Positions 3,535 through 27,160 are shown, counted from the first letter of the stretch. The stretch: DNA of 64,000 nt from Rhodospirillaceae bacterium (GCA_018702955.1 JABJEK010000058.1:47150-111149), one strand, 5' to 3'. Numbers and translations: made by a program. The notes: a model not told the origin generated them from the sequence alone.

Positions 3535-4866
3535 CTAGCCCGCAGCGTCAAAATGGTGCACGAGCTTGGTCTTGTAATCCGTGCGCGGCAGGCTCCCGAA
3601 CGGCACGACCTCGACCCTGGTCGTGACCACGAGTTTCGCGCGGATGGCCTTTTCGATGGCTTCACCGAGGCCGGCGCCAGGGCTGCTGCCCTCCGCCGCC
3701 TCGACGTGAACCGGCAGCGGCGGCAATTGCTGTACGCCCTGCCGGCTCGGGCGCACCAGCATGATCCCGCTGACATCCGGGCGAAACTGGTTCACCACCT
3801 CCCGGATCGCACTGGGGAAGATGTTGACCCCGCGCACGATGAGCATGTCGTCGGTCCGCCCGATGCAACGAATGCGCGGCCCCGTGCGGCCGCTCGCGAC
3901 CGGCCCCATGCTGACCGTGACATGGTCGCGCGAGCGAAAACGCAGCAGGGGCGCGGCTTCCTGCTGCAAATGGGTATAGACCGGCTCGCCCTGGACCCCG
4001 TCCTCGAACGGCAAGGTTTCCCCGGTCTCGGGATCAATCAGCTCCATGTGGATGTAGTCCCGGGCGAGGAAGTTCATGCCCGCCTGTTCCGGCCCCTCCC
4101 CGAACATGGAAATCGACATTTCACCGAGCCCCATCACCTCATGCACCTTGGCGTTGAACGCCGCCTCGATCTGCGCCCGAACTTCCGGTTCACCCCCGCC
4201 TGGCTCACCGCCGGCCACGAGCGTCTCCAGTCCGCACGCCGCCGGATCAATGCCGCGTGCACGCGCGGCTTCGGCGATATACAGGAAATAAGATGGCGTC
4301 CCGGGCATCGCCTGCACCTGAAAACGCTCCAGCGCCGTCAGGAGACGATCGGTGTTGCCGCTGCCCACCGGCACCATGCGCACGCCCAGCGCGATCATGG
4401 ATTCGTGCACCGCACCCGCCACGAAGGGGCCGGAATTATAGGTGGTGACGACCCGGTGATGGGGACGGATACCGGCGGCGAAATAGCTGCGGTTCGATGT
4501 CTGGACCCAGCGCTTGAGGTCACCCTGGGTAACGGGAATATAAAGCGGCGTACCCGACGTCCCGCTGGTTGAATAAATCCGCACCACATCGTCGAGCGGA
4601 GCCGCAAGCTGCTTACCCAGCGGCAGGTGCCCGGCCTGGCTGGCACGCAGTTCATCTTTGACCGTGAACGGCAGGTGCCGCAGATCATCCAGCCCGCCGA
4701 CGGATTCGGGCGTCTTGAAACCGGCCGCCTTGAACTTCTCGCGATAAAACTCGGACCGCGCGAACAGATACTCGATCTGTTTGCGGTAAACCGGCTCGTC
4801 CTTCTGTTTCTGGTCCGCGAGGTCCCGGGTCTCGGCCTCGGGATCAAAGAGATCGGCGGCCGACAT
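3535..4866 (-). CDS. Phenylacetate-CoA ligase (PaaK) family acyl-CoA ligase
   Basis: YSTSGTSGTP AMP-binding loop; GGEPGG, LLRFRSRD and GRTDDMLIVRGVNIFPS motifs. Confidence 0.85.
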   Translation of the reverse strand: MSAADLFDPEAETRDLADQKQKDEPVYRKQIEYLFARSEFYREKFKAAGFKTPESVGGLDDLRHLPFTVKDELRASQAGHLPLGKQLAAPLDDVVRIYSTSGTSGTPLYIPVTQGDLKRWVQTSNRSYFAAGIRPHHRVVTTYNSGPFVAGAVHESMIALGVRMVPVGSGNTDRLLTALERFQVQAMPGTPSYFLYIAEAARARGIDPAACGLETLVAGGEPGGGEPEVRAQIEAAFNAKVHEVMGLGEMSISMFGEGPEQAGMNFLARDYIHMELIDPETGETLPFEDGVQGEPVYTHLQQEAAPLLRFRSRDHVTVSMGPVASGRTGPRIRCIGRTDDMLIVRGVNIFPSAIREVVNQFRPDVSGIMLVRPSRQGVQQLPPLPVHVEAAEGSSPGAGLGEAIEKAIRAKLVVTTRVEVVPFGSLPRTDYKTKLVHHFDAAG

Positions 4867-4871
4867 ATATT

Positions 4872-5657
4872 CTAGTCCCCGTCATAGGTGATGGCTTCTT
4901 CCCCGTGGTGGGCCAGCAGGAAACCGATCGGACGTTCCATTTCCTCGTTTAAATGACCGATCAGGCCCACCGTGCGGGCGAGAATGGGAATCCCCCGGAT
5001 CGCCGCCTTGGGAAAATCCAGGTCGAGAAGCACTGCCGCCATCGGCCCTTGCAAATTCATCGGCAGCGGCTTGCCCCAGACCTCGGCAACAGCATCCGGG
5101 AAGGCCCGCAGCGCGCCAACATGGCGTGCAGACACGCCGCGCTCGTCCGCCAGATCGAGGATGCGTACCGCGCGGGGATCAACCGGGTGGTGGATGGGAT
5201 GGCCGAACCCGGGAATAAACTTGCCGGCGTCCTTGTATTCACGTGCGATGGCGAGCGCCGCCGCCTCGGGAGACTCTCCGCCCTCGATCCGCGTCGCCGC
5301 ATCATCGAGCATTTCGCCGCAAACATCCGCACTGCCCAGAATGACGGAGCCGACCCCGAGGAGGCCGGCCGCAACTGCGCCCTGCATGGCCTCCGGTGCT
5401 GCCGCCAGGGTCATGCGGGCCGCCTGCACACTCGGCGTCAGGCCATGTTCGGCCAGCGCCACCACCAGGACGTCCATGAAGAACGCCTGATCGGCGCTGG
5501 GCTCACGCCCTGTGAGATGAAGAAAGAAAAACTCGGCGATAGAGCTGTGCCCCATAACCTCATTGCATAGATCCTTCCCGCGTACCGTGATCGAGGTGGC
5601 ATCCGCCGTTTCGATGGCAGTTTTCGCCTCGCCCTTCTTACCAATCAGCATCGTCAT
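4872..5657 (-). CDS. Citryl-CoA lyase-like / citrate synthase-fold protein
   Basis: AEHGLTPS, IPGFGHPIH and ARTVGLIGH motifs; start placed at the ATG downstream of a GGGGAG RBS. Confidence 0.8.
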   Translation of the reverse strand: MTMLIGKKGEAKTAIETADATSITVRGKDLCNEVMGHSSIAEFFFLHLTGREPSADQAFFMDVLVVALAEHGLTPSVQAARMTLAAAPEAMQGAVAAGLLGVGSVILGSADVCGEMLDDAATRIEGGESPEAAALAIAREYKDAGKFIPGFGHPIHHPVDPRAVRILDLADERGVSARHVGALRAFPDAVAEVWGKPLPMNLQGPMAAVLLDLDFPKAAIRGIPILARTVGLIGHLNEEMERPIGFLLAHHGEEAITYDGD

Positions 5658-5841
5658 CTCCCCTAAGTGCTGCGCGACGATAGGGTCAAACACGCGCCTA
5701 AACAATATTTCACATATGAGAAGAATAATTCGTAGTGTGGAACGAGATTGACTCTTGCCAACACCCTTCGTCTAGAATGCATCAGGGCCCGATAAATCGC
5801 GGACGACAAGCCGCGAAGGCAGAGGCCAGGGAGATAACGCT

Positions 5842-6957
5842 ATGAAATACGGAATGTTCGCAATGCCGCTCCGTCCGCCCGGGGGGGACGTCACCAAGGA
5901 ATACCATCAGGATATCGAAACCTTCGTCATGGGCGACAAGCTCGGCTACACCGAAGGCTGGATGGGCGAGCATTACACCATTCCGTGGGAGCCGATCCCG
6001 GCCACAGACCTCTTCGCCGCATCCGTATTCGCGCGCACCGAGAACATCCGCATCGGCACCGGCATCGTGCTGTTGCCCATGCACGATCCACGTCAGGTGG
6101 CATTGCGTATCGCTTATCTCGACCATCTGTCGAAAGGCCGCCTGAATTTCGGGATCGGTGCCGGTGGCGCCCCGACCGACTTCCAGTTCTGGGATATCGA
6201 CTACAAGGAAGGCGAGCATCGCGCACGCATGCGTGAATCGATCGACGTGATCAAGCGCTTGTGGACCGAAGACGAGCCGTTCGAACACAATGGCAAATTC
6301 TGGCAGTTCAAGGTGCCGGAACCGATGCCGCAAGTGCCGTTGGGCCATCACATTCGGCCCTATCAGGACCCGCATCCGCCGATCGCTGTATCGGGATTGC
6401 ACAAGGCGTCGGAATCGCTGTTCACGGCGGGGGCCAACGGCTGGATACCGATGAGCATCAACTACCTGCCGGCGGTCAACCTCAACACCCACTGGGATGC
6501 CGTGTGCGAGGGTGCGAAATCCACCGGCCGTCCCGCGCCGCGTCGCAGCGAGTGGCGGATTGCACGTGAGGTGTTTGTCGGCAAGACGGACCAGGAAGCG
6601 CGCGACCATGTGCTGAACGGCCCGATCGGACGTGCGTATACCGACTACATGTACAACGTGCTGAAGTCGCTGGGCGCGACCGATCTCTACAAGGGAGATC
6701 CGGACATGCCCGACGAAGCGCTGACGGCGGAGTATGTTTGCGACAATATCTGGGTTGTCGGCAGCCCCGACACGGTCGCGGAAAAGCTGAGCAAGCTCTA
6801 TGACGACGTGGGCGGTTTCGGCACCGTGCTGCAGATCCAATACACCTACGAACCGCACCAGATTTGGTACGACAACATGGACCTGTTCGCCAACAAGGTG
6901 ATGCCGAGCCTCGCGCACCTCGTGCCCGAAGACGAACCGGCCGCCGCAGCGCAGTAA
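5842..6957 (+). CDS. LLM-class (luciferase-like) flavin-dependent monooxygenase
   Basis: WMGEHY, IRIGTGIVLLP, LDHLSKGRLNFGIGAG, PYQDPHPPI and VVGSPDTV motifs. Confidence 0.9.
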   Translation: MKYGMFAMPLRPPGGDVTKEYHQDIETFVMGDKLGYTEGWMGEHYTIPWEPIPATDLFAASVFARTENIRIGTGIVLLPMHDPRQVALRIAYLDHLSKGRLNFGIGAGGAPTDFQFWDIDYKEGEHRARMRESIDVIKRLWTEDEPFEHNGKFWQFKVPEPMPQVPLGHHIRPYQDPHPPIAVSGLHKASESLFTAGANGWIPMSINYLPAVNLNTHWDAVCEGAKSTGRPAPRRSEWRIAREVFVGKTDQEARDHVLNGPIGRAYTDYMYNVLKSLGATDLYKGDPDMPDEALTAEYVCDNIWVVGSPDTVAEKLSKLYDDVGGFGTVLQIQYTYEPHQIWYDNMDLFANKVMPSLAHLVPEDEPAAAAQ

Positions 6958-6981
6958 CAGGGCACCAAAATGTTCGGCCCA

Positions 6982-7007
6982 CCCCGCATCACGCGCGTGA
7001 TGCGGGG
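6982..7007. other. Perfect 26-bp palindrome (intercistronic hairpin)
   Basis: CCCCGCATCACGC/GCGTGATGCGGGG, no adjacent U-tract. Confidence 0.75.
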
Positions 7008-7037
7008 CTCGCCAACATAAGCATCACGGAGACCTAA

Positions 7038-8069
7038 ATGTCCGTTGCCTCTGAATCGAAATTCCAAGTATCCCCCGATATCGCGGCATGCATTGCTGAA
7101 GAGCGCATTCCGATCATCGATGTCGGCGACTTTCTGTCGGGCGACGCCGATGCGCTGGAGCAGTTCGCGACCGACTTGCGGGCGATCCAGGAAAGCCTCG
7201 GCTTCTACTGCATCGTCAATCATGGCATCGATCAGGGGCTGATCGATCGCAGTTTCGACCAGATTGCGGAACTGTTTGCGCTGCCCGATGAGACCAAGTT
7301 GAAATACCGGGTAGACTTCCACCATCAAGGCTTCATCCCCAACAAATCGCTGATCCTGCGCTGGTCGAAGATTGCGAAGAATGAGAAGAAGGACCTGAAC
7401 GAGGCTTGGGCGTTCATGCGTGAGCGAACCGCCGATGATCCCAAGGTCAAAGACAATATCCGTCACCGAAACCTCAACCAGTGGCCGGAAGAGCTGCCGG
7501 AATTTCGCAAAACGCTTGTCGAGTATCAGGAAACCATGGCCGTATTGGCGACGCGGATGCTACCCGCTTATGCCCGGGCGCTCGAAATGCCGGCGGACTA
7601 TTTCGACGAGAAGTTTTCGCACCCCGAATATTACAACCGTTGTGCCTGGTATCCGCCCGTCGATGCCGAGGAGGGACAATTCTCACTGTCGCCCCATTCC
7701 GACCACAGCTCCATGACCTATCTGCCACTCATGGATGTGGCGGGACTTGAGGTCATGGCACCGTCGGGGAAATGGATGCAGATCGAGCCCCTGCGCGGTG
7801 CGATCGTCGTGAACACCGGTGAGTTCTTCAACCGCTGGACCAACGGACGTTTCATCGCCACGCCGCACCGCGTCGTACCGCCGCTGAAGGACCGCTACGC
7901 GCTGACATTCTTCTACAACTGCAACGACGAAACCGTGGCCGACCCGATCCCGACCTGCATCAATCCCGGAGATAAGCCGGTCTATGTACCCATGTCGTTC
8001 CACGACTTCTTCATCACCTATATGGATGGCAACTACATCTACCGCACGGCGGAGATGGACGGGGACTAG
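7038..8069 (+). CDS. 2-oxoglutarate/Fe(II) oxygenase, isopenicillin N synthase-like family
   Basis: IPIIDV N-terminal DIOX region; HSD...H facial triad (PHSDHS, TPHRV); NTGE..RWTNG motif. Confidence 0.9.
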   Translation: MSVASESKFQVSPDIAACIAEERIPIIDVGDFLSGDADALEQFATDLRAIQESLGFYCIVNHGIDQGLIDRSFDQIAELFALPDETKLKYRVDFHHQGFIPNKSLILRWSKIAKNEKKDLNEAWAFMRERTADDPKVKDNIRHRNLNQWPEELPEFRKTLVEYQETMAVLATRMLPAYARALEMPADYFDEKFSHPEYYNRCAWYPPVDAEEGQFSLSPHSDHSSMTYLPLMDVAGLEVMAPSGKWMQIEPLRGAIVVNTGEFFNRWTNGRFIATPHRVVPPLKDRYALTFFYNCNDETVADPIPTCINPGDKPVYVPMSFHDFFITYMDGNYIYRTAEMDGD

Positions 8070-8117
8070 TGGTCCTGGCCACCCACCCCCAGTATGTCCC
8101 GTGACGAAAGCAGTCGT

Positions 8118-8894
8118 ATGAGCGCTGAGCATATCCTGACCGAAACGCGTGATCGCGTGCTGTATGTGACCATCAACCGGGTGGAGAAACACAACGCGCT
8201 CGCGATTTCGATTATCGACGAAATCGGCGAGACCTTCCGCGCGGCGGCAAAGGACGAGACACTTGTGGCGGGCGTGCTGCGTGGAGCGGGCGAAAAGACC
8301 TTCGCCGCCGGCGGCGACTTGCGTGAACTGGCCGGGCTGCGCACCCAGACGGAAGCCGAAAAAATGGCAATCGATGCCAAGGCAGCATTTAACGCCATCC
8401 GGGATTTCCCCGTCCCGGTTATCGCAGGGCTCAACGGCAACGCCTTCGGCGGCGGGGCCGAGCTCGCCGTATCGTGTGACTTCCGCGTCGCGGCGGCCCA
8501 CGCCAAAATCGGCTTCGTCCAAGGTCGGCTAGCCCTGGCCACGGCATGGGGCGGCGGCCCGGACCTGCTCGACCTGGTCGGCCGCGCGCGGGGCCTGCGG
8601 CTGATGAGCACCGGCGAAATGCTCGACCCGGCAACAGCACTGGAAATTGGCCTGTATGACGCGGTGGGTCAGGCCGCCGAGCCCTTCGACGAAACAATCG
8701 AGGGCTTCCTCGCACCGATCCGCAAGCAGAAGCCGCAATCCATGCGTGCGTTCAAGGCCGTCAGCGATTCACACCGGCGCGGAGATGCTCGCACCGCGAT
8801 GCAAGAGATAGAGACCTGCATGTTCGTGAAGACCTGGGTCCATGACGATCACTGGGAGGCGGCCGAAAAGGTGCTTCCCACGAAGAAGGGCTGA
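8118..8894 (+). CDS. Crotonase-family protein, ECHDC1 (alkylmalonyl-CoA decarboxylase)-like
   Basis: FAAGGDL, GGGAELAVSCDFR and FVQGRLALATAWGGG motifs; the second catalytic Glu position is Gln. Confidence 0.8.
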   Translation: MSAEHILTETRDRVLYVTINRVEKHNALAISIIDEIGETFRAAAKDETLVAGVLRGAGEKTFAAGGDLRELAGLRTQTEAEKMAIDAKAAFNAIRDFPVPVIAGLNGNAFGGGAELAVSCDFRVAAAHAKIGFVQGRLALATAWGGGPDLLDLVGRARGLRLMSTGEMLDPATALEIGLYDAVGQAAEPFDETIEGFLAPIRKQKPQSMRAFKAVSDSHRRGDARTAMQEIETCMFVKTWVHDDHWEAAEKVLPTKKG

Positions 8895-8898
8895 CCCG

Positions 8899-10542
8899 AT
8901 GACCGACAATTCCGCCCCCCGGAAAGACGACGCCGAGGCCGCGCGTCGCGAGCCACCAACCAAACCCTCCACCGCAACTCCCTCGGGCATCGAGGTGCCG
9001 CCGGTGGTGACGCCGGATATGGTGGCAGACCGCGAACCGGAGATGCCGGGCGAATATCCGTTCACCCGCGGCATCTTCCCCGATGGTTTTCGCGGCCGAT
9101 TGTGGACCATTCGCCAGTATTCGGGTTTCGGCACGGCCGAGGAATCGAATGAGCGCTACAGGTTTCTGCTCGATCAGGGACAAACCGGCCTGTCGGTCGC
9201 GCTCGACTTGCCCACCCAGTGCGGCTACGACCCGGTCGATCCGATTGCGAAATCCGAAGTCGGCAAGGTCGGTGTCTCCCTGTCGAGCCTGGCCGAGGCC
9301 GAAATATTGTTCGACGGCATCGATCTGGGCGGAATCTCCACCTCCTTCACGATCAACGGCACCGCGTCGATCATCTACGCCATGTATTGCGCCGTCGCCG
9401 ACAAAAAGGGCGTACCGCGCGAGAAGCTGACCGGCACGATCCAGAACGACATCCTCAAGGAGTATGTCGCGCGCGGCACCTGGATTTTCCCGGTGCGCCC
9501 ATCGATGCGCCTGATCGCCGATACGATCCTGTTCTCCTATGACCAGACACCCCGATTCAACGCGATCAGCATCGCCGGCGCCCATGTGCGCGACGCGGGC
9601 TGCACGGCGGTCGAGGAGATGGGCTACACGCTAGCCAACGGGCTCGCCTATATCGACGAACTGATCCGCCGGGGCGGCGATGTGGAGAAATTCGCACGCC
9701 GGCTCAGTTTCTTCTTCTATGTGCACATGGATTTCTTCGAGGAAGTCTGCAAATTCCGCGCGGGTCGGCGGCTCTGGGCAAAACTCCTCACCGAACGCTA
9801 CGGCGTGAAGGATCCCAAGGCCCTTATGTTTCGTTTCGGCGTTGTCTGCGGCGGCTCGTCCCTGGTCGGCGCCCAGCCTTACAACAACGTCGTCCGCGTC
9901 GGCATCGAGAACATGGCGGCCGTGATGGGCGGCGCCCAATCCATCTTCACCGCCGCATTCGACGAGGCCTACCAGATTCCGACCGAGCATTCTGCGGAGA
10001 TCGCCGTCCGCACCCAGCAAATCGTCGCCCATGAATCCGGCATCGCACGAACCGTCGACCCATTGGGTGGCAGCCACTATGTCGAGTGGCTGACCGACCG
10101 GATGGAGGACGAAGTCATGAAGGTAATCGACGAGATCGAGGCATATGGTGGCGTGACCAAGGCGGTGGAAGACGGCTGGCTGCAGATGAAAATCGCCCAG
10201 CGCGCATCCGAGCGAAAACATAAGATCGACAGCGGTGAAACAGTCGTTGTCGGCCAGAACCACTTCCGTCGCGACGACCAGAATGACGGTGTCGCCGAAT
10301 TATTCAAACTCGACCCGCAAGCATCAGCCCGCGTCATCGGCAAGTTCGAAAAAGTCCGTGACAGCCGTGACAACGACGCGGTCACGGCATCCCTGTCTGC
10401 CCTGGAGGCAGCTGCCGCCAAGGACGATGAGAACCTCATGCCCTATCTGATCGATTGCTGTCATGCCTATGCAACTGTCGGTGAGATGGTGGCGACACTG
10501 AAGTCGCAATGGGGCGAATTCGAAGAACCAGTGAGGCTTTAG
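8899..10542 (+). CDS. B12-dependent acyl-CoA mutase, large (substrate-binding) subunit
   Basis: PGEYPFTRG, WTIRQYSGFG, GTIQNDILKEY, QPYNNVVRV and DPLGGSHYVE motifs; no B12 domain fused. Confidence 0.95.
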   Translation: MTDNSAPRKDDAEAARREPPTKPSTATPSGIEVPPVVTPDMVADREPEMPGEYPFTRGIFPDGFRGRLWTIRQYSGFGTAEESNERYRFLLDQGQTGLSVALDLPTQCGYDPVDPIAKSEVGKVGVSLSSLAEAEILFDGIDLGGISTSFTINGTASIIYAMYCAVADKKGVPREKLTGTIQNDILKEYVARGTWIFPVRPSMRLIADTILFSYDQTPRFNAISIAGAHVRDAGCTAVEEMGYTLANGLAYIDELIRRGGDVEKFARRLSFFFYVHMDFFEEVCKFRAGRRLWAKLLTERYGVKDPKALMFRFGVVCGGSSLVGAQPYNNVVRVGIENMAAVMGGAQSIFTAAFDEAYQIPTEHSAEIAVRTQQIVAHESGIARTVDPLGGSHYVEWLTDRMEDEVMKVIDEIEAYGGVTKAVEDGWLQMKIAQRASERKHKIDSGETVVVGQNHFRRDDQNDGVAELFKLDPQASARVIGKFEKVRDSRDNDAVTASLSALEAAAAKDDENLMPYLIDCCHAYATVGEMVATLKSQWGEFEEPVRL

Positions 10543-10551
10543 GATCGCACC

Positions 10552-10950
10552 ATGAGCCTGAACGGAAAACGTATCCTGATCGCGAAACCGGGCCTCGACG
10601 GGCACGATGTCGGCGCAAAAATCATCGCCCTGGCGCTGCGCGACGCAGGCGCCGACGTGATCTATACCGGCCTCCGGCGCACGCCCGACTATATCGCGCG
10701 GGTCGCGGTCGACGAGGATGTCGACGCGGTCGGACTGTCGATCCTGTCGGGCAGCCACAAGGAGCTGGTCGAGGAGACGGTGCGTTGTCTCAACGAGTTG
10801 GATGCTGGTGATATCCGCCTGTTCGTCGGCGGCACCATTCCGGCGGAGGACCATGACGAACTGCGCGATGCGGGCGCCCGCGGCATTTTCACGGCAGAAA
10901 TGACGATCAATGATGTGGTGGCCGCGCTCGACGCGGAACTGAGCGCGTGA
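10552..10950 (+). CDS. Acyl-CoA mutase small subunit (cobalamin-binding domain)
   Basis: KPGLDGHDVGAKII (DxHxxG), VGLSILSGSH and FVGGTIP motifs. Confidence 0.95.
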   Translation: MSLNGKRILIAKPGLDGHDVGAKIIALALRDAGADVIYTGLRRTPDYIARVAVDEDVDAVGLSILSGSHKELVEETVRCLNELDAGDIRLFVGGTIPAEDHDELRDAGARGIFTAEMTINDVVAALDAELSA

Positions 10951-12089
10951 GTGGAGGCCCCCTTTCCGGCGTTCGGATCATTGAGGTCGCGCATGTTCTC
11001 GCCGGCCCGTTCTGCAGCATGATTCTGGGCGACCTGGGCGCCGACGTGATCAAGGTCGAGCCCCCGGGCGGCGACATGGCCCGCAACATCACCAAGCAGT
11101 TCACGGGGCCCTACAACGACTATTTCGCGAGCCTCAACCGCAACAAGCGCTCCATCGTCCTCGACCTGAATACGCCGGCCGGTCAGGCCCAACTCGGCGC
11201 GCTCGCGGCCGATGCCCAAGGCCTGGTTACCAACCTGCGACCCGCCACCATTCGGCGTTTCGGCCTGACCTATGACGACCTGAAGCCCCACAATCCAAAT
11301 CTGGTTTGCCTGGCGTTGACGGGGTTTGGGCTCGACGGACCCTATGCCGACAAGCCTGCTTACGACTACATCGTCCAGGCGCTCGCCGGTGTCATGACCC
11401 TGACCGGTGACCCGGGCACCGCGCCGACCAAGGCCGGTTACTCCGCCGTCGACAATTCAACCGGCATGATGGGTGCCATCGGCCTGCTGGCGAAGATCAT
11501 CGAGGGCAAGGGTGGCCAGGTCGATGTCTCCCTGTTCGACACCATGCTGGCCCAGCTCAACTATCTGGCCTCGGGCTACCTCAACCACGGCATCGTCCCG
11601 CAACGAACATCGCAAAGTGCGCACCCGTACATGGTCCCGGCCCAGGTCTTCGAGACCAGCGACGGATACCTGATGTTGTTCATCTCGACCGACAAGTTCT
11701 GGAAGAAATTCTGCGAGGTCGTCGGCTGGACCGAACAGGCACGTGACCCGAACCTCGCAACCATGAATGCGCGGACGGAAAACCGCGACGCCGTGATCGG
11801 CGCCGTCGGCGAACTCATGAAGTCACAAACCACCGCATACTGGGTCGAGACACTCGGCAACGAGGGCCTCGTGGTCTCGGGCGTCGAAACCCTCGACCAG
11901 GCACTCGATGGGGACATGGCCGCATCGCGTGAGATGATAGCGGTAATTCCCACACCCGACGGTGCGCTCCGCGTGGTCGGTAATCCGATCAAGATGACCG
12001 ATCATCCGCCCCGGTATGGCCTGCCGCCGCTGCTGGGCGAACATACTGACGAAATCCTGGGCACCTCGCCCGCCGCCGCAGCCAAATGA
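10947..12089 (+). CDS. Family III CoA-transferase (CaiB/BaiF)
   Basis: LAGPFCSMILGDLGADVIKVEPPGGD, NRNKRSI and YSAVDNSTG (catalytic Asp position) motifs. Confidence 0.93.
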   Translation: MSGGPLSGVRIIEVAHVLAGPFCSMILGDLGADVIKVEPPGGDMARNITKQFTGPYNDYFASLNRNKRSIVLDLNTPAGQAQLGALAADAQGLVTNLRPATIRRFGLTYDDLKPHNPNLVCLALTGFGLDGPYADKPAYDYIVQALAGVMTLTGDPGTAPTKAGYSAVDNSTGMMGAIGLLAKIIEGKGGQVDVSLFDTMLAQLNYLASGYLNHGIVPQRTSQSAHPYMVPAQVFETSDGYLMLFISTDKFWKKFCEVVGWTEQARDPNLATMNARTENRDAVIGAVGELMKSQTTAYWVETLGNEGLVVSGVETLDQALDGDMAASREMIAVIPTPDGALRVVGNPIKMTDHPPRYGLPPLLGEHTDEILGTSPAAAAK

Positions 12090-12985
12090 GCGGCACGTCA
12101 CGCAATCCGCGGCGAAACCTCAGCCGCGCGCTGTCGCGCATCGCCAACGCCGATGTCTACGAGACCCTGGCACAGCAGAGCGGACCATCCGCAGAAAACC
12201 TGCCGCGGATCGGCATCACGGGCGCACCGGGCGCGGGCAAAAGCTCCCTCATCGCCAGGCTCGCCAAGCTCCGCAAACGCAACGACCGAAAGATCGCGGT
12301 GCTGGCGGTCGACCCGTCGAGCCCGGTCTCCCAGGGTTCCATCCTCGGCGACCGGATTCGCATGGACGCCATCGCCGACGACCCGGACATCTTCATCCGC
12401 TCGATCCCCTCGCGCCGCGCCCATGACGGCCTGGCGGACAACACCGCCGATCTGCTCAACGCCATGGAAGGGCACGGGTTCGGCGAAATCATTCTTGAGA
12501 CAGTGGGCGTCGGACAGGCCGAGTACACCATCCGCACATTGGTCGACACGGTGGTGCTCATCCTGGTGCCCCATTCCGGCGATGCCATCCAGGCGATGAA
12601 GGCCGGCATTCTCGAAATGGCCGATATCTATGTTGTAAACAAGGCCGACCTGCCCGGCGCCGACCTGATGGCCACCGAAATCGAGCAAGTGGCCGACCAT
12701 CAAAGCGCCGACGGCTGGACCCCACCCGTCATCATGACGTCCCGCAACGATCCCGAGGGCTTTGCCGCGCTCGATGACGCCATCAATGCCCATATGGCCT
12801 GGCAGGTGAACCACGGCGATCCGGCCGCAGCGCGGCGCGCCCGCGCGCGCTACCAGGCCCAGGCGCTCATTTCCCGGCGCATCGACGAAGTGCTCGAGGC
12901 GGCCGGCGAAGATATCCTCGACCAGAATCCCGGCGAGCTGTTCGACGCGATCGTCGCCCGGCTCGGCCGCACAAACGAGGCATGA
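12086..12985 (+). CDS. meaB: MeaB/ArgK mutase-associated GTPase
   Basis: GITGAPGAGKSS, AVDPSSP, LGDRIRM, ETVGVGQ and VNKAD motifs; adjacent to the mutase genes. Confidence 0.92.
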   Translation: MSGTSRNPRRNLSRALSRIANADVYETLAQQSGPSAENLPRIGITGAPGAGKSSLIARLAKLRKRNDRKIAVLAVDPSSPVSQGSILGDRIRMDAIADDPDIFIRSIPSRRAHDGLADNTADLLNAMEGHGFGEIILETVGVGQAEYTIRTLVDTVVLILVPHSGDAIQAMKAGILEMADIYVVNKADLPGADLMATEIEQVADHQSADGWTPPVIMTSRNDPEGFAALDDAINAHMAWQVNHGDPAAARRARARYQAQALISRRIDEVLEAAGEDILDQNPGELFDAIVARLGRTNEA

Positions 12986-13905
12986 CACAAATGTTCGCAC
13001 CACCCCCTGTCATCGAAACCCGGGTCTTCGCCGATGTGAATGCGACCCACGGCATCAATGACCGGGAGTCCGAATGGGCGAAGCTCCTGTTCGGCCGCCC
13101 CAACACGCCGAGTTTCCTCGAGGGACCCTCGTTTGATCGCGCCGGCAATCTCTGGCTCGTCGATGTCGCCTGGGGCCGTCTGTTCCGTATATCGCCGGCC
13201 GGCGATATCGAGCTTGCCTGTACCTATGACGGCGAGCCCAATGGCTTGGCCTTCCACAAGGACGGACACGGCATCATCGCCGACCATTATCACGGGCTGA
13301 TGCGCCTCGATCCCGAGGCCGGCACGGTGGAACCTCACATGGTGCGCAACACCAATGAGCGGTTTCGCGGCACCAACGACCTGACCTTCGCCTCGAACGG
13401 CGACCTCTACTTCACCGACCAGGGCACGTCCGACCTGATTGATCGGTCGGGCCGGGTGTTTTGCCTGCATGCGGATGGCACCCTCGAACTCGTCTGCGCG
13501 GACCTGCCGAGCCCGAACGGGCTGGTCCTGAGTGGCGACGAGAAAATTCTGTATGTGGGCCTGACCCGCGACAACGCGGTCTGGCGCATGCGCCTGGCCG
13601 AACGCGGCCGCGCGGATCAGGTGGGGCGTTTCGCGCGCATGTCGGGCGGCACCGGCCCGGACGGCATGGCCGCGGACGCCGACGACAACCTTCTCGTCTG
13701 CCATGTCGGGTTCGGCGCGATCTGGGTGTTCGCAGCCAACGGAGAGCCGATCTACCGGATCAACTCCTGCGCCGGGCCGTTGATGACCAACTGTGCATTC
13801 GGGGGGCCCGACGGCAAGACCCTCTACATCACGGAATCGGCTACCGGTCAGGTGCTCACGGCCGAGATGCCGACGGCGGGCCGCATTCTATTTTCACACA
13901 TGTAG
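12982..13905 (+). CDS. SMP-30/gluconolactonase family beta-propeller
   Basis: FLEGPSFD, PNGLAF, TNDLTF.LYFTD, PNGLVLS and PDGMAAD motifs. Confidence 0.9.
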   Translation: MTQMFAPPPVIETRVFADVNATHGINDRESEWAKLLFGRPNTPSFLEGPSFDRAGNLWLVDVAWGRLFRISPAGDIELACTYDGEPNGLAFHKDGHGIIADHYHGLMRLDPEAGTVEPHMVRNTNERFRGTNDLTFASNGDLYFTDQGTSDLIDRSGRVFCLHADGTLELVCADLPSPNGLVLSGDEKILYVGLTRDNAVWRMRLAERGRADQVGRFARMSGGTGPDGMAADADDNLLVCHVGFGAIWVFAANGEPIYRINSCAGPLMTNCAFGGPDGKTLYITESATGQVLTAEMPTAGRILFSHM

Positions 13906-13907
13906 AC

Positions 13908-13979
13908 GGGCGGGTTACAAACCCGCCCCTACTGACCACACGCGCGGACCGGATGTAGGGGCAGGTTTCAAACCTGCCC
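13908..13979. repeat. Inverted doublet of GTAG-type REP-like elements
   Basis: GGGCGGGTTACAAACCCGCCCCTAC (13908-13932, reverse) and GTAGGGGCAGGTTTCAAACCTGCCC (13955-13979). Confidence 0.8.
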
Positions 13980-13983
13980 GCGC

Positions 13984-14868
13984 CTACTCCGCCGCCTTCG
14001 TGATTTCACCCTCGAGGATCTCGTAGACCACCGCACACTCATCCTCGAGGCGTCCGGCCTTTTCGATCTTCTTGTAATAGTCGTTGCAGATCCGCAGCAG
14101 CGGCGCCGACAGGCCCAGCGCGTCGGCCTGCTCCTCGACGATATCGAGGTCCTTCCACAACAGCTTGCTCGGGCCCGCGCAGGGCTGCCAGGCCCGGTCC
14201 TTGATGATGCCCGCGCGCATGCCGAAAACGGTCGACCCGGCGGCACTCGGACCCACGATATCGATCATCAACTCGGGGTCGAGGCCCATCTCCGCACCGA
14301 ACAACATGCCTTCTGCCAGGGCCACCGTGTTCGCCCCGACCATAAAGTTGATCATCAGCTTGAGCTTGATGCCGGTGCCGTATTCGCCGACATAGAACGT
14401 CTTCGGGCAGACCTTCTCAAGCATCGGCTTCACGGATTCACAAAGCGTCTCGTCGCCGCTCATCATGATGACGCCCTTGCCCGCCCGAATGATCGGCTGG
14501 GTGCCGCTCAGGGGGCAATCGATGATCTGTGCGGGTGTATCGCCGACCTGGTCGCGGACACGCTCCTTCTCGCCCACCGGGAAGGTGTTCATCTCGATGA
14601 TCGTCAGGCCTTCATGGGCACCGGCCAGCAGGCCGTCAGGACCCTCCAGCGCCGTGCGGGACGCCTGGGTGCTCGGCAGCGCCGAAATCACCACATCGGC
14701 CCATTCAGCAAGCTCACGCGCCGTCTCGAATAATTTGCCGCCGGTGTCCGGGAAGCTCTCGGTGCTCGGGCGACGAACCGCAGCGCATTCGTAACCCTCC
14801 GGCATCAGGATCTCGGCCGTAATACCGCCAATCAGCCCAAGACCCAGAATTCCTACCTTTTCAACCAT
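13984..14868 (-). CDS. NAD(P)-dependent beta-hydroxyacid dehydrogenase (3-hydroxyisobutyrate dehydrogenase family)
   Basis: GILGLGLIGG Rossmann motif, DCPLSG, and KLKLMIN with the catalytic Lys. Confidence 0.85.
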   Translation of the reverse strand: MVEKVGILGLGLIGGITAEILMPEGYECAAVRRPSTESFPDTGGKLFETARELAEWADVVISALPSTQASRTALEGPDGLLAGAHEGLTIIEMNTFPVGEKERVRDQVGDTPAQIIDCPLSGTQPIIRAGKGVIMMSGDETLCESVKPMLEKVCPKTFYVGEYGTGIKLKLMINFMVGANTVALAEGMLFGAEMGLDPELMIDIVGPSAAGSTVFGMRAGIIKDRAWQPCAGPSKLLWKDLDIVEEQADALGLSAPLLRICNDYYKKIEKAGRLEDECAVVYEILEGEITKAAE

Positions 14869-14907
14869 GATGTCCTCCCTCTAGAAGCAATCTCATATGT
14901 CCCGACC

Positions 14908-15498
14908 TCAGGGGCCGGCGCCCAATACCGCCTCGCGGAACCGGGAGCGCAAGTAGGCCCCGTCCCGCGCCGGTAGGACGCGCGGATGCTCACCCGCCTC
15001 GATCTTGATGTTGGCAAACAACGTCCCCTCGCAGCGCTGCATGCGTGTCGCGAGCGTGCCCAGCGCGTTCATGTCCCGGATATCCTCGAGCGCCTCGATC
15101 CCGCAACCCCGTGCCACATCCACCAGGCTGACCCCGCGCGCCGTCGCCGTCGGCTGGGCTCCGGTTTCGCCATAGACCTCGTTGTCGAGCACGATCACCG
15201 ACAGGTTGGCGGGTTGAGCGGCGGCGATCGTCGCCAGGCTGCCGAGACCCATCAGCATGTCCCCATCACCGGTGATGGCGGCGACCGGCCGGTCCGGTTG
15301 TGCCTGCGCCAGCCCGAGCGCCAGGGCGGCGGTGCCTCCCATGGCACCCCAGAGATAGAAATTACGCGGATCGTCGCCCGCGGCCGCGCAGTCATAGGTC
15401 GCCGAGCCGAGCCCGGAGACCACAAGCAGCTCGCCGCGATCCTGCAGCAGTCGCGCGACGGCCTCGCGGCGGTCCAGGCGCGGTTGGGGTCCGGTCAT
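14908..15498 (-). CDS. ThDP-dependent decarboxylase beta subunit (sulfopyruvate/phosphonopyruvate decarboxylase-like)
   Basis: GAMG and GDGDMLMGLGSL...LDNEVYGETG ThDP-binding motif. Confidence 0.85.
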   Translation of the reverse strand: MTGPQPRLDRREAVARLLQDRGELLVVSGLGSATYDCAAAGDDPRNFYLWGAMGGTAALALGLAQAQPDRPVAAITGDGDMLMGLGSLATIAAAQPANLSVIVLDNEVYGETGAQPTATARGVSLVDVARGCGIEALEDIRDMNALGTLATRMQRCEGTLFANIKIEAGEHPRVLPARDGAYLRSRFREAVLGAGP

Positions 15499-15499
15499 G

Positions 15500-16051
15500 T
15501 CAGCCCTCCTCCGTGAAGGCCTTGCGGCCGATCAGACGCTGGGAAAGCAGCACCGCCGAGGCGAGCATCCCGTCAAAGGATTGCCGGATCGCGGCATCGA
15601 GTGTCGGCGCGGCGTCATCGGGGTCGTCGACCCGATGCGCCTGCACGCCCATCCGCGTGAGTATGTCGGGTGTCGCCTGCCCCATCTGGGCCTGCCACGG
15701 GTTGAACTCGCCCCATTCGCCGCGCATCGTGATGAGCGTCACCAGCGGCAGCCGACAATTCTCGATCAGGGTGAACATGTTCACGCAATTGCCCACGCCG
15801 CTCGATTGCATCAGCAGGATCCCGCGATCACCGCCTAGCCAGGCACCAGCCAGCAACGCCACACCGTCCTCTTCCGTGGTCAGGACCGTCGCGGTCATGT
15901 CCGGGTTGTCTTCGCACCGCTCGATCAGCCGCGCATGCCCCGCATCCGGCACATAGGCGACCTGGCGAATATTCTGCTGCACCAGCACGTCGTAGAGCGC
16001 GTCGGCCCAATCCGGCGTCGCGGCATCGGGCCTTATAACCGTGTCGCTCAT
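15500..16051 (-). CDS. ThDP-dependent decarboxylase alpha subunit (ComD-like)
   Basis: AYVPDA, TTEEDGVAL, MQSSGVGN and RGEWGEFNPWQ motifs; paired with the beta subunit. Confidence 0.85.
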   Translation of the reverse strand: MSDTVIRPDAATPDWADALYDVLVQQNIRQVAYVPDAGHARLIERCEDNPDMTATVLTTEEDGVALLAGAWLGGDRGILLMQSSGVGNCVNMFTLIENCRLPLVTLITMRGEWGEFNPWQAQMGQATPDILTRMGVQAHRVDDPDDAAPTLDAAIRQSFDGMLASAVLLSQRLIGRKAFTEEG

Positions 16052-16803
16052 ATGCTCCCCCCGAGAGCCTCAAGCCGGTCCTTCGCGGCCAGCAGCTGTG
16101 CTGCAAGCTTGGTCTCGCCGGCCTCCATTCGCACGAGGGGGCCCGCAATCGCGATCCCCATGATCTCGCCATACACGTCCGCCGTGGTCGCCAGCCCCAT
16201 CACATCGACGACATTCTCGCCACGGGTCACAAAATATCCCTTGGCGATGCCGTCGGCGAGATCGGCCACCAGGCTCGCGCGCTCGGTGATCGTATTCGGG
16301 GTCTGCAGGTCGAGCGACAGGCGCGCCACCAGGGCCGCGCGCTCCCCGTCATTCAGGCGACCGAGAAACGCCTTTCCGATCGCGCTCGAATGCATGGGTT
16401 TGATGTCCCCCGCGCCGGCAGAATAACGCAACGTCTGACCTCCCTCGATCACATCGAGATAGAGGATCGTCTCGCCCTGGCGGCGGCCCAGCAGGATTGT
16501 CTCGTTGGTCTCGTCACGCAGCACCTCCAGCACCGGGACAATGCTTTCGAGAACCGGATCATGGGCGGCAATGGTGTTGGCGATTTCCAGCAGGCGTTTG
16601 GTCGGATAGATCGCCCGGTTTCGTTCGGAGGTGTAGAGATATCCCTTGGCGCTGAGCGTCCGGACCAGCCCGTGGCAGCTGCTGATCGGCGCCGACAGGG
16701 CCTCGGCAATCTGGGTCAGGGTCATGGGACCCTTGCGACGCGAGAACGCCTCAAACAGGTTTACGGTACGTACCGCTGTCTTCACACCATCATTCATATT
16801 CAT
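16048..16803 (-). CDS. IclR family transcriptional regulator
   Basis: N-terminal HTH (VKTAVRTVNLFE...SSCHGLVRTL); HSSAIGKA and IAIAGP effector-domain motifs. Confidence 0.9.
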   Translation of the reverse strand: MNMNDGVKTAVRTVNLFEAFSRRKGPMTLTQIAEALSAPISSCHGLVRTLSAKGYLYTSERNRAIYPTKRLLEIANTIAAHDPVLESIVPVLEVLRDETNETILLGRRQGETILYLDVIEGGQTLRYSAGAGDIKPMHSSAIGKAFLGRLNDGERAALVARLSLDLQTPNTITERASLVADLADGIAKGYFVTRGENVVDVMGLATTADVYGEIMGIAIAGPLVRMEAGETKLAAQLLAAKDRLEALGGSI

Positions 16804-16919
16804 GAAATTGAGTTTGACCGTGTGAAACACAGGGGTCAAGCGCCGCCCACTCTGCTTTTCCGAAGTCCGGCAATGGCGTAAAATCGAAGCAACCGAACAA
16901 CAAATCGCGGTGCGCCTGC

Positions 16920-27083: not shown

Positions 27084-27160
27084 TGGTGGGCCCGGCAGGA
27101 CTCGAACCTGCGACATGACCGTTATGAGCGGTCCGTTCTAACCAGCTGAACTACGGGCCC
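27084..27160 (-). tRNA. tRNA-Ile2 (CAU anticodon, lysidine-type)
   Basis: GGGCCCGTAGTTCAGCTGGTTAGAACGGACCGCTCATAACGGTCATGTCGCAGGTTCGAGTCCTGCCGGGCCCACCA: 77-nt cloverleaf with encoded CCA. Paired G1 rules out the initiator; C4-G69/C5-G68 favour Ile2 over elongator Met. Confidence 0.9.

What the first reader, a model, noticed from the sequence alone, without database searches (positions are those of the whole stretch)
8118..8894. Crotonase resembles the ethylmalonyl-CoA decarboxylase ECHDC1 rather than a hydratase
The second catalytic Glu of true enoyl-CoA hydratases (PE..LG) is replaced (FVQGRL). The stretch GGGAELAVSCDFR...KIGFVQGRLALATAWGGG parallels ECHDC1 as recalled (GGGAEFTTACDFR...KIRFVHKEMGIIPSWGG). 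Its position immediately before the mutase suggests it decarboxylates the mutase product.
Basis: partly seen in the sequence, partly recalled or inferred. Interest (0 to 1): 0.6.

Follow-up and report, generated by a model that had tools for sequence, protein, structure and literature searches.

The report
ECHDC1-like crotonase wired to B12 mutase
This gene encodes a crotonase-fold enzyme whose closest relatives are the animal ethylmalonyl-CoA decarboxylase ECHDC1, not hydratases. Across about 70 bacterial species it sits directly in front of an unusual vitamin-B12 mutase, so it most likely removes CO2 from that mutase's product in an undescribed pathway for breaking down a branched dicarboxylic acid.

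Summary
No biochemistry was done.

**The gene.** Window 8118-8894(+) encodes a 258-aa crotonase. It keeps the first hydratase Glu (E115, GGGAEL), but Gln135 (GFVQGRL) replaces the second.

**Link to ECHDC1.**
- The signature GGGAE…CDFR…F-[VI]-[Q/H]-x-[R/K]…WGG is fixed in all 84 related loci.
- It is also the signature of the ECHDC1 family: of 108 representatives, 53 have His, 49 have Gln and 78 have Arg/Lys at +2.
- None of 18 paralogues from the same genome or 6 E. coli crotonases has it.
- ML trees place the bacterial family as sister to ECHDC1 (95/84, then 100/96 with denser sampling). E. coli ScpB falls elsewhere.

**Gene context.**
- In 67 of 74 species loci the gene lies no more than 150 nt upstream of a distinct split mutase. 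That mutase keeps its carboxylate-binding residues and has an enlarged pocket.
- A family III CoA-transferase and MeaB usually follow. These are the same four functions as the E. coli sbm operon.
- In several lineages isovaleryl-CoA dehydrogenase and methylcrotonyl-CoA carboxylase genes are adjacent.

**Best reading (about 0.6).** It is an alkylmalonyl-CoA decarboxylase that pulls the mutase reaction forward. The substrate is unknown; 2,2-dimethylsuccinate is a speculative candidate.

The scan noted the same motif and operon earlier in two other genomes.

The parts
8118..8894 (+). ECHDC1-like crotonase gene (258 aa; an alternative upstream ATG at 8094 would give 266 aa)
   Evidence: ORF and translation. 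Pfam ECH_1 at 125 bits. Most of the 43 aligned homologues are 255-258 aa. AF2 model has pLDDT 93.8 and a crotonase fold, TM 0.90 to 5z7r.
8448..8465 (+). GGGAEL: second oxyanion-hole glycines and the retained first catalytic Glu (E115, 8460-8462)
   Evidence: Invariant in the family and in 107/107 ECHDC1 representatives. Coordinates checked.
8514..8528 (+). F133-V134-Q135-G136-R137: Gln in place of the second hydratase Glu, with the F-V-[Q/H]-x-[R/K] signature shared with ECHDC1
   Evidence: Alignments to hydratases. Family conservation. ECHDC1 family statistics.
8547..8558 (+). W144-G-G-G, the WGG motif shared with ECHDC1 (97/108 representatives have Trp)
8899..10542 (+). Large subunit of a split B12 acyl-CoA mutase of a distinct subfamily, starting 4 nt after the crotonase stop
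   Evidence: Pfam MM_CoA_mutase at 652 bits. PDB alignments. Y89, R207 and H244 are kept; Y243A, H328G, Q330V, T331C and S332G are fixed in 76/77 partner mutases.
10552..10950 (+). B12-binding small subunit of the mutase
   Evidence: Pfam B12-binding and TIGR00640 at 139 bits.
10947..12089 (+). Family III CoA-transferase of the dicarboxylate type
   Evidence: Pfam CoA_transf_3 at 367 bits. Nearest NCBIfam models are the succinate-glutarate and succinyl-CoA:mesaconate transferases, both below cut-off. Nearest solved structures are transferases including SUGCT, not racemases.
12086..12985 (+). MeaB-type G-protein chaperone of the mutase
   Evidence: TIGR00750 at 241.9 bits, above the 240.75 cut-off.

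Best explanation
**What it is (shown).** The gene encodes a member of a bacterial sister clade of ECHDC1, the crotonase-fold ethylmalonyl/methylmalonyl-CoA decarboxylase.

**Proposed pathway (inferred).**
1. The family III CoA-transferase puts CoA on an imported, substituted succinate.
2. The MeaB-assisted split B12 mutase shifts the thioester. This makes a 2-substituted malonyl-CoA that still carries the carboxylate held by the Tyr89/Arg207 equivalents.
3. The crotonase binds this alkylmalonyl-CoA. Its oxyanion hole polarises the thioester and CO2 is lost.
4. The retained Glu115 protonates the resulting enolate, giving a plain acyl-CoA.

Because decarboxylation is irreversible, it pulls the unfavourable mutase equilibrium forward, as ScpB does in the E. 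coli sbm operon.

**Residue roles (inferred).** Gln/His135 replaces the water-activating Glu, so hydration is disabled. Arg/Lys137 may position the leaving carboxylate.

**Fate of the product (inferred).** The acyl-CoA enters ordinary catabolism. In lineages where isovaleryl-CoA dehydrogenase and methylcrotonyl-CoA carboxylase genes are adjacent, the product may be isovaleryl-CoA. That would make the substrate pair 2,2-dimethylsuccinyl-CoA and isopropylmalonyl-CoA; this part is speculative.
For: **Active-site signature**
- GGGAE…CDFR…F-[VI]-[Q/H]-x-[R/K]…WGG is present in all 84 loci.
- The same signature marks the ECHDC1 family: 53 His and 49 Gln of 108 representatives, 78 Arg/Lys at +2, 97 Trp.
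- It is absent from 18 same-genome paralogues and 6 E. coli crotonases.

**Similarity scores**
- Human-type ECHDC1 scores 96-100 bits against family members, against 93.7 for its best PDB chain.
- Family members score 111-137 bits against ECHDC1 representatives. Their best PDB chains score 105-120, and other crotonases 99 or less.

**Phylogeny**
- The family plus ECHDC1 forms a clade at 95/84 and 100/96 with 18 ECHDC1 rows.

**ECHDC1 biochemistry**
- ECHDC1 decarboxylates ethyl- and methylmalonyl-CoA. Its knockout accumulates 2,2-dimethylmalonyl-CoA (PMC8473548).

**Gene context**
- In 67 of 74 loci the special mutase starts within 150 nt downstream. Of 62 loci with enough flank, 58 have both mutase subunits, 42 the CoA-transferase and 38 MeaB.
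- The mutase keeps Y89, R207 and H244.
- The E. coli sbm operon holds the same four functions.
- The genome has its own canonical MCM and VOC epimerase elsewhere.
- IVD and MCC genes are adjacent in locus L044. MCC genes are adjacent in six deltaproteobacterial loci and one Binataceae locus.
- L020 and L021 keep crotonase plus CoA-transferase without the mutase. That fits a decarboxylase acting on an activated alkylmalonate.
Against: - No enzymatic data exist for any member.
- Only the His-type mammalian ECHDC1 has been assayed (my knowledge of the literature). The Gln-type eukaryotic proteins are named by orthology only.
- The window protein's own scores against solved hydratases (104.7 bits) are close to its best ECHDC1-family score (110.9).
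- In the sparser tree, an AU test did not reject ECHDC1 grouping with FadB instead (p = 0.18).
- The outgroup sample is limited to one genome's paralogues plus E. coli.
- ECHDC1 is listed as acting on the (S)-epimer (EC 4.1.1.94, my knowledge), whereas MCM-type mutases handle the (2R)-epimer.
- Three genomes keep the crotonase without the special mutase.
- The substrate is unknown.
Confidence: 0.6

Rival explanations
1. It is a hydratase, dehydratase or double-bond isomerase acting on an unsaturated or hydroxy dicarboxylyl-CoA. An example is a LiuC-like 3-methylglutaconyl-CoA hydratase, using Glu115 alone as the base.
For: - Overall fold and best solved matches are short-chain hydratases and LiuC.
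- In deltaproteobacterial and Binataceae loci the gene sits where liuC usually sits, right after the methylcrotonyl-CoA carboxylase genes.
- Single-acid crotonase isomerases and hydratase/lyases exist (my knowledge).
Against: - The second Glu is never present in 84 loci.
- All hydratase NCBIfam models score below cut-off.
- The family groups with ECHDC1, not with PaaF, CaiD, FadB or the genome's hydratase-like paralogues.
- HMG-CoA and 3-methylglutaconyl-CoA are not chemically suited to a 1,2 acyl shift (inference), so the universal mutase partner would be unexplained.
Confidence: 0.15
2. It is an alkylmalonyl-CoA epimerase or racemase, an enolate-forming enzyme that does not decarboxylate. 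It would supply the mutase with the correct 2-epimer after CoA transfer or carboxylation.
For: - The gene lies between substrate-forming genes and the mutase. That is the slot the VOC epimerase fills in the propionyl-CoA pathway.
- An oxyanion hole plus one acid/base could support epimerisation (inference).
Against: - The neighbouring carboxyltransferase is MCC-type: 763 bits to 3u9r, against about 230 to true PccB. It therefore does not make a 2-alkylmalonyl-CoA.
- The genome already has a canonical VOC epimerase (155.8 bits) and a canonical MCM.
- The nearest characterised relative is a decarboxylase.
Confidence: 0.1
3. It is a metabolite-proofreading decarboxylase, as ECHDC1 is in mammals. 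It would destroy off-pathway alkylmalonyl-CoAs made by the mutase or by carboxylases, rather than carrying the main flux.
For: - ECHDC1's known role is proofreading (PMC8473548, PMC6717113).
- A prokaryote-like ECHDC1-family gene exists with no mutase nearby.
- The crotonase persists in three genomes that lack the special mutase.
Against: A 4-nt gap, likely translational coupling and adjacency in 67 of 74 loci across at least four phyla look more like a stoichiometric pathway partner than a repair enzyme.
Confidence: 0.1

Closest known systems
ECHDC1, ethylmalonyl-CoA decarboxylase (EC 4.1.1.94) of animals and other eukaryotes
   Same: - Crotonase fold.
- Invariant GGGAE Glu.
- F-V-[H/Q]-x-[R/K] in place of the hydratase P-E.
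- CDFR and WGG motifs.
- Sister position in ML trees (100/96).
- Mutually highest phmmer scores.
- 28-36% identity.
   Different: - It is a separate bacterial clade: 75-137 bits, against at least 150 among ECHDC1 orthologues.
- It has no N-terminal extension.
- Family-specific features include Asp149 where ECHDC1 has Arg, and a C-terminal HDDHW motif.
- It is encoded in a catabolic operon with a B12 mutase rather than acting as a stand-alone repair enzyme.
- Its activity is untested.
E. coli ScpB/YgfG methylmalonyl-CoA decarboxylase in the sbm (scpA-argK-scpB-scpC) operon
   Same: The operon logic is the same: mutase, MeaB/ArgK GTPase, crotonase-fold enzyme and CoA-transferase. The proposed role is also the same, decarboxylating the mutase's malonyl-type product.
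   Different: - Only 24% identity and 57 bits.
- YgfG's His66 and Tyr140 align with Gly66 and Thr142 here.
- ScpB lies elsewhere in the tree.
- The CoA-transferase here is family III, whereas ScpC belongs to another transferase family (my knowledge).
- The mutase here is split and has a remodelled pocket.

The arrangement therefore looks like convergent recruitment.
Short-chain enoyl-CoA hydratases (crotonase, ECHS1, LiuC/AUH)
   Same: Fold (TM 0.87-0.90), the oxyanion-hole motifs and the first Glu.
   Different: The second catalytic Glu is replaced by Gln or His in every family member. No NCBIfam hydratase model reaches its cut-off.

Membership tests
ECHDC1-like alkylmalonyl-CoA decarboxylases | Crotonase fold with the conserved Glu in GGGAE | tested here: met
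   Pfam ECH_1. AF2 model and Foldseek. E115 is invariant in the family and in 107/107 ECHDC1 representatives.
ECHDC1-like alkylmalonyl-CoA decarboxylases | F-V-[H/Q]-x-[R/K] at the position of the hydratase P-E, plus WGG | tested here: met
   The window has FVQGR and AWGGG. ECHDC1 representatives have FVH in 40 and FVQ in 39, with 53 His and 49 Gln overall, Arg/Lys in 78 and Trp in 97 of 108. The motif is absent from 24 other crotonases.
ECHDC1-like alkylmalonyl-CoA decarboxylases | Phylogenetic grouping with ECHDC1 to the exclusion of hydratases, isomerases, MenB and ScpB | tested here: met
   ML trees give 95/84 and 100/96. Caveats: the outgroup set is limited, and the AU test on the sparse tree did not reject one alternative.
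ECHDC1-like alkylmalonyl-CoA decarboxylases | Orthology to ECHDC1 proper | tested here: not met
   The family forms its own clade (100/100). It scores 75-137 bits, whereas the 150 best ECHDC1 relatives all score at least 150.
ECHDC1-like alkylmalonyl-CoA decarboxylases | Decarboxylation of ethyl- or methylmalonyl-CoA | not testable with these tools
   This needs an enzyme assay.
Enoyl-CoA hydratase (EC 4.2.1.17) | Two catalytic glutamates (rat Glu144 and Glu164) | tested here: not met
   E115 is present. The second position is Gln135, or His in 5 loci, and never Glu in 84 loci.
Enoyl-CoA hydratase (EC 4.2.1.17) | Score above a curated NCBIfam hydratase model cut-off | tested here: not met
   The best model, NF004781, scores 132.6 bits against a cut-off of 291. 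All 25 models listed are below cut-off.
ScpB/YgfG methylmalonyl-CoA decarboxylase | YgfG active-site His66 and Tyr140, and close sequence relationship | tested here: not met
   These residues align with Gly66 and Thr142. Identity is 24% at 57 bits, and ScpB is distant in the trees.

The most novel reading that the evidence does not exclude
The crotonase, mutase, CoA-transferase and MeaB genes encode a widespread, undescribed bacterial route for degrading dicarboxylic acids with a quaternary (gem-dimethyl) carbon, such as 2,2-dimethylsuccinate.

1. CoA transfer activates the acid.
2. B12-dependent rearrangement converts 2,2-dimethylsuccinyl-CoA to isopropylmalonyl-CoA.
3. The ECHDC1-like enzyme decarboxylates this to isovaleryl-CoA.
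4. The leucine (IVD/MCC) pathway finishes the breakdown.

This would make a bacterial ECHDC1 relative a main-flux catabolic enzyme rather than a repair enzyme.
Probability: 0.15. Interest if true: 0.8.

Novelty: new variant of a known kind. Interest (0 to 1): 0.6.

Why it matters
ECHDC1 is known only as a eukaryotic metabolite-repair enzyme, and its catalytic residues have not been defined structurally.

A large bacterial sister family hard-wired to a B12 mutase would matter in three ways:
- It would show that this decarboxylase lineage was recruited as a pathway enzyme, convergently with ScpB in the E. coli sbm operon.
- It would give a handle on the substrate of an uncharacterised mutase subfamily found in marine and soil Proteobacteria, Myxococcota, Binatota and Nitrospirota.
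- The His/Gln alternation and the Arg/Lys at +2 are ready-made targets for mutagenesis, to work out how crotonase-fold decarboxylases function.

It would also correct the blanket 'enoyl-CoA hydratase' annotation these genes carry.

Tried and rejected
- **NCBIfam naming.** It gave only below-cut-off hydratase hits and no name.
- **Foldseek on the AF2 model.** It returned generic crotonases and could not discriminate function.
- **Epimerase idea.** I first read the carboxylase genes upstream of the crotonase in deltaproteobacterial loci as propionyl-CoA carboxylase, and the crotonase as an epimerase analogue. I dropped this when the carboxyltransferase proved to be MCC-type and the genome proved to have its own VOC epimerase and canonical MCM.
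- **1.84-billion representative search with ECHDC1.** Its top 150 were all ECHDC1 orthologues at 150 bits or more, so it could not rank the bacterial family directly. It did supply the ECHDC1 diversity used for the motif statistics and the second tree.
- **AU test on the first, sparse tree.** It did not reject ECHDC1+FadB (p = 0.18), so I resampled ECHDC1 more densely.
- **Literature.** Searches for the operon, for dimethylsuccinyl-, isopropylmalonyl- or dimethylmalonyl-CoA mutases, and for bacterial ECHDC1 homologues found no description. Linster et al. 2011 is not held.
- **Other scans.** Rfam found no B12 riboswitch near the operon. The promoter and terminator scans gave nothing above chance.
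- **3-D inspection.** Model coordinates are not exposed, so distances between E115, Q135, R137 and the oxyanion hole could not be measured.

Full report
**Observation.** Window 8118-8894(+) is an open frame of 258 codons. Pfam assigns it to ECH_1 (125 bits) and more weakly to ECH_2. All NCBIfam hydratase, isomerase and related models score far below their curated cut-offs; the best is 132.6 bits against 291. HMMER alignments to solved hydratases place Glu115 opposite the first catalytic Glu, and Gln135 opposite the Glu of the hydratase 'PE' motif. Codon positions were checked. The stop codon is 8892-8894, and the in-frame ATG of the mutase large subunit is 8899-8901, a 4-nt gap.

**Is the ECHDC1 resemblance real?** I fished real ECHDC1 sequences out of the protein collection with a 71-residue fragment. 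Plain pairwise identity is unremarkable:
- 28% to primate ECHDC1;
- 24% to E. coli ScpB;
- about 38% over the aligned region to the best solved hydratases.

The active-site signature is more telling. In 43 aligned homologues (at least 50% identity), E115, C120, D121, R123, F133, Q135, G136, W144, G145-147 and D149 are invariant. In all 84 loci examined, the segment reads GGGAEL…CDFR…IGF[VI][QH]G[RK]L…[ST]AWGGG. Five loci carry His instead of Gln.

I then took the 150 best relatives of ECHDC1 from 1.84 billion cluster representatives. Those that carry names are eukaryotic proteins, mostly labelled ethylmalonyl-CoA decarboxylase, from molluscs, nematodes, a bryozoan, ticks and a green alga. Among the 108 that are at least 240 aa long:
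- the first Glu is invariant;
- the second-Glu position is His in 53 and Gln in 49;
- the two preceding residues are F-V (FVH 40, FVQ 39);
- the residue at +2 is Arg or Lys in 78;
- the WGG tryptophan is present in 97.

One nematode protein even reads GFVQGRLG. None of 18 crotonase paralogues from the window's own genome has this signature, and none of six E. coli crotonases (PaaF, PaaG, MenB, CaiD, FadB, ScpB) does either. The bona fide hydratases among them have G-[LQ]-P-E.

**Scores and trees.** With ECHDC1 as the query, family members score 96-100 bits. That is more than any of the 177,635 PDB sequences, where the best is 93.7. In the other direction, family members score 111-137 bits against ECHDC1 representatives. 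Their best PDB chains score 105-120, and same-genome and E. coli crotonases 99 or less.

A first ML tree (51 rows, LG+C20+F+G4) recovered the family (100/99) as sister to ECHDC1 (100/100) with 95/84 support. ScpB fell elsewhere. An AU test did not reject ECHDC1+FadB in that sparse tree (p = 0.18). After I added 15 diverse ECHDC1 representatives to break the long branch, the family+ECHDC1 split rose to 100/96 with a branch length of 0.43. The bootstrap had not fully converged. The outgroup is limited to one genome's paralogues plus E. coli, so a broader tree is still desirable. The family is a sister clade, not an orthologue of ECHDC1.

**Structure.** The AF2 model (pLDDT 93.8) is a standard crotonase fold with TM 0.90 to Clostridium crotonase and 0.87 to LiuC. 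This does not discriminate function. No ECHDC1 entry appeared among the 60 PDB matches listed for the ECHDC1 query.

**Context.** Eighty species-level loci were fetched. They come from Alpha- (52), Delta- (8), Gamma- (7) and Betaproteobacteria (6), plus Myxococcota, Binatota, Nitrospirota and others.
- Of 74 loci with at least 2 kb downstream, 67 have the same mutase large subunit (69-94% identical) starting within 150 nt on the same strand. Another two have it within 1.5 kb.
- Of 62 loci with at least 5.5 kb downstream, 58 have both mutase subunits, 42 the family III CoA-transferase and 38 MeaB.
- An IclR regulator lies directly upstream in 23 loci.

The partner mutase keeps the P. shermanii MCM carboxylate and carbonyl ligands Tyr89, Arg207 and His244. 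It has Y243A, H328G, Q330V, T331C and S332G fixed in 76 of 77 copies. It therefore binds a carboxylated acyl-CoA in a roomier pocket. The CoA-transferase resembles dicarboxylate transferases such as SUGCT and YfdE, not racemases. The genome separately encodes a canonical fused MCM and a canonical VOC methylmalonyl-CoA epimerase, so this is a second, specialised system. Crotonase, mutase, MeaB and CoA-transferase are the same four functions found in the E. coli scpA-argK-scpB-scpC operon.

**Links to leucine catabolism.** In six deltaproteobacterial loci and one Binataceae locus, the crotonase-mutase pair is preceded in one tight operon by a carboxyltransferase, a biotin carboxylase and a BCCP. 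The carboxyltransferase is of the methylcrotonyl-CoA carboxylase type: 763 bits to P. aeruginosa MCC-beta, against about 230 to true PccB. In alphaproteobacterial locus L044, MeaB is followed directly by an isovaleryl-CoA dehydrogenase (416 bits to IVD 4kto), MCC-beta and a biotin carboxylase. This argues against my interim epimerase idea. It suggests that, at least in these lineages, the pathway product feeds in at isovaleryl-CoA. By the chemistry of 1,2 acyl shifts, isovaleryl-CoA would arise by decarboxylating isopropylmalonyl-CoA, which is the mutase isomer of 2,2-dimethylsuccinyl-CoA. This is inference only. ECHDC1-knockout mice accumulate 2,2-dimethylmalonyl-CoA, so the ECHDC1 type of active site probably tolerates branched alkylmalonyl-CoAs (PMC8473548).

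**Exceptions.** Three genomes (loci L013, L020, L021) have only a 45%-identical fused MCM and lack the special mutase. They still keep the crotonase, with a TauD-like gene inserted upstream. L020 and L021 also keep the CoA-transferase directly after it. One SAR324 locus (L079) has no mutase nearby. A Methylococcus MAG (L057) pairs the crotonase with a different mutase. An ECHDC1-family gene on a compact, prokaryote-like contig has no mutase neighbour. The crotonase activity is therefore not strictly dependent on the mutase. That is easier to reconcile with a decarboxylase acting on any activated alkylmalonate than with an epimerase.

**Mechanism and verdict.**
- *Shown:* the second hydratase Glu is lost; the active-site signature is that of ECHDC1; the family is sister to ECHDC1; and the gene is part of a conserved operon with a carboxylate-binding B12 mutase.
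- *Inferred:* the enzyme decarboxylates the mutase's 2-substituted malonyl-CoA product through an enolate stabilised by the oxyanion hole and protonated by Glu115. This pulls the mutase reaction forward, as ScpB does in E. coli.
- *Untested:* the activity, the stereospecificity and the substrate.

The rivals are a hydratase or isomerase, an epimerase, and a pure proofreading role. All three remain possible but fit the data less well. No paper in the library describes this operon or a bacterial ECHDC1-like pathway enzyme. The scan had already noted the same motif and operon in two other genomes, and the mutase subfamily in this window. I class the finding as a new variant of a known kind, of moderate to good interest.

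Noticed in passing
window 8899-10950: The partner split mutase belongs to a subfamily with a rigid active-site signature. Y89, R207 and H244 are kept, while Y243A, H328G, Q330V, T331C and S332G occur in 76 of 77 copies next to this crotonase. Its substrate is unknown.
   Followed up: partly
L038, L049, L050, L055, L058, L068 (about 6370-12800) and L030: In deltaproteobacterial and Binataceae MAGs, an MCC-type carboxyltransferase, a separate biotin carboxylase (about 502 aa) and a separate BCCP (about 170 aa) precede the crotonase and mutase in one tight operon. There is no CoA-transferase or MeaB.
   Followed up: partly
L044:7885-19023: In this alphaproteobacterial locus the gene order is CoA-transferase, unknown gene, crotonase, mutase, second CoA-transferase, MeaB, isovaleryl-CoA dehydrogenase, MCC-beta, biotin carboxylase.
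   Followed up: partly
L001/L013 (9139-11707), L020, L021: Three marine alphaproteobacterial genomes have lost the special mutase and MeaB. They keep the crotonase with a TauD-like dioxygenase inserted just upstream. L020 and L021 keep the CoA-transferase right after the crotonase.
   Followed up: partly
window 3535-8069 and 12982-16839: The crotonase operon is extended by a luciferase-like monooxygenase and a 2OG/Fe(II) oxygenase upstream and an SMP-30/gluconolactonase-like gene downstream. It is flanked by a divergent PaaK-like ligase plus a citryl-CoA-lyase-like gene. On the other side lies a ComDE-like split ThDP decarboxylase, a beta-hydroxyacid dehydrogenase and an IclR gene. This set is conserved only in the closest marine relatives.
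   Followed up: no
L053:4959-12790: Three mutase large-subunit paralogues and two small subunits lie in a row around the crotonase position.
   Followed up: no
L057:2111-7028: A Methylococcus MAG pairs a family crotonase with a different mutase: 43% identity, Asn at the Tyr89 position and Cys at 243.
   Followed up: no
L123:3736-4542: An ECHDC1-family protein (P0359; 158 bits to the primate ECHDC1 query P0126, FVH type) lies on a compact, prokaryote-like contig with no mutase nearby. This hints that ECHDC1-type enzymes also exist as stand-alone genes in bacteria.
   Followed up: partly
P0122 (tick protein, 528 aa): The 'ethylmalonyl-CoA decarboxylase-like' protein of Dermacentor andersoni is a tandem of two complete ECHDC1-like domains.
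   Followed up: no
window 27087-27160 (-): This tRNA gene was the only Rfam match in the window. No cobalamin riboswitch lies near the mutase operon.
   Followed up: no
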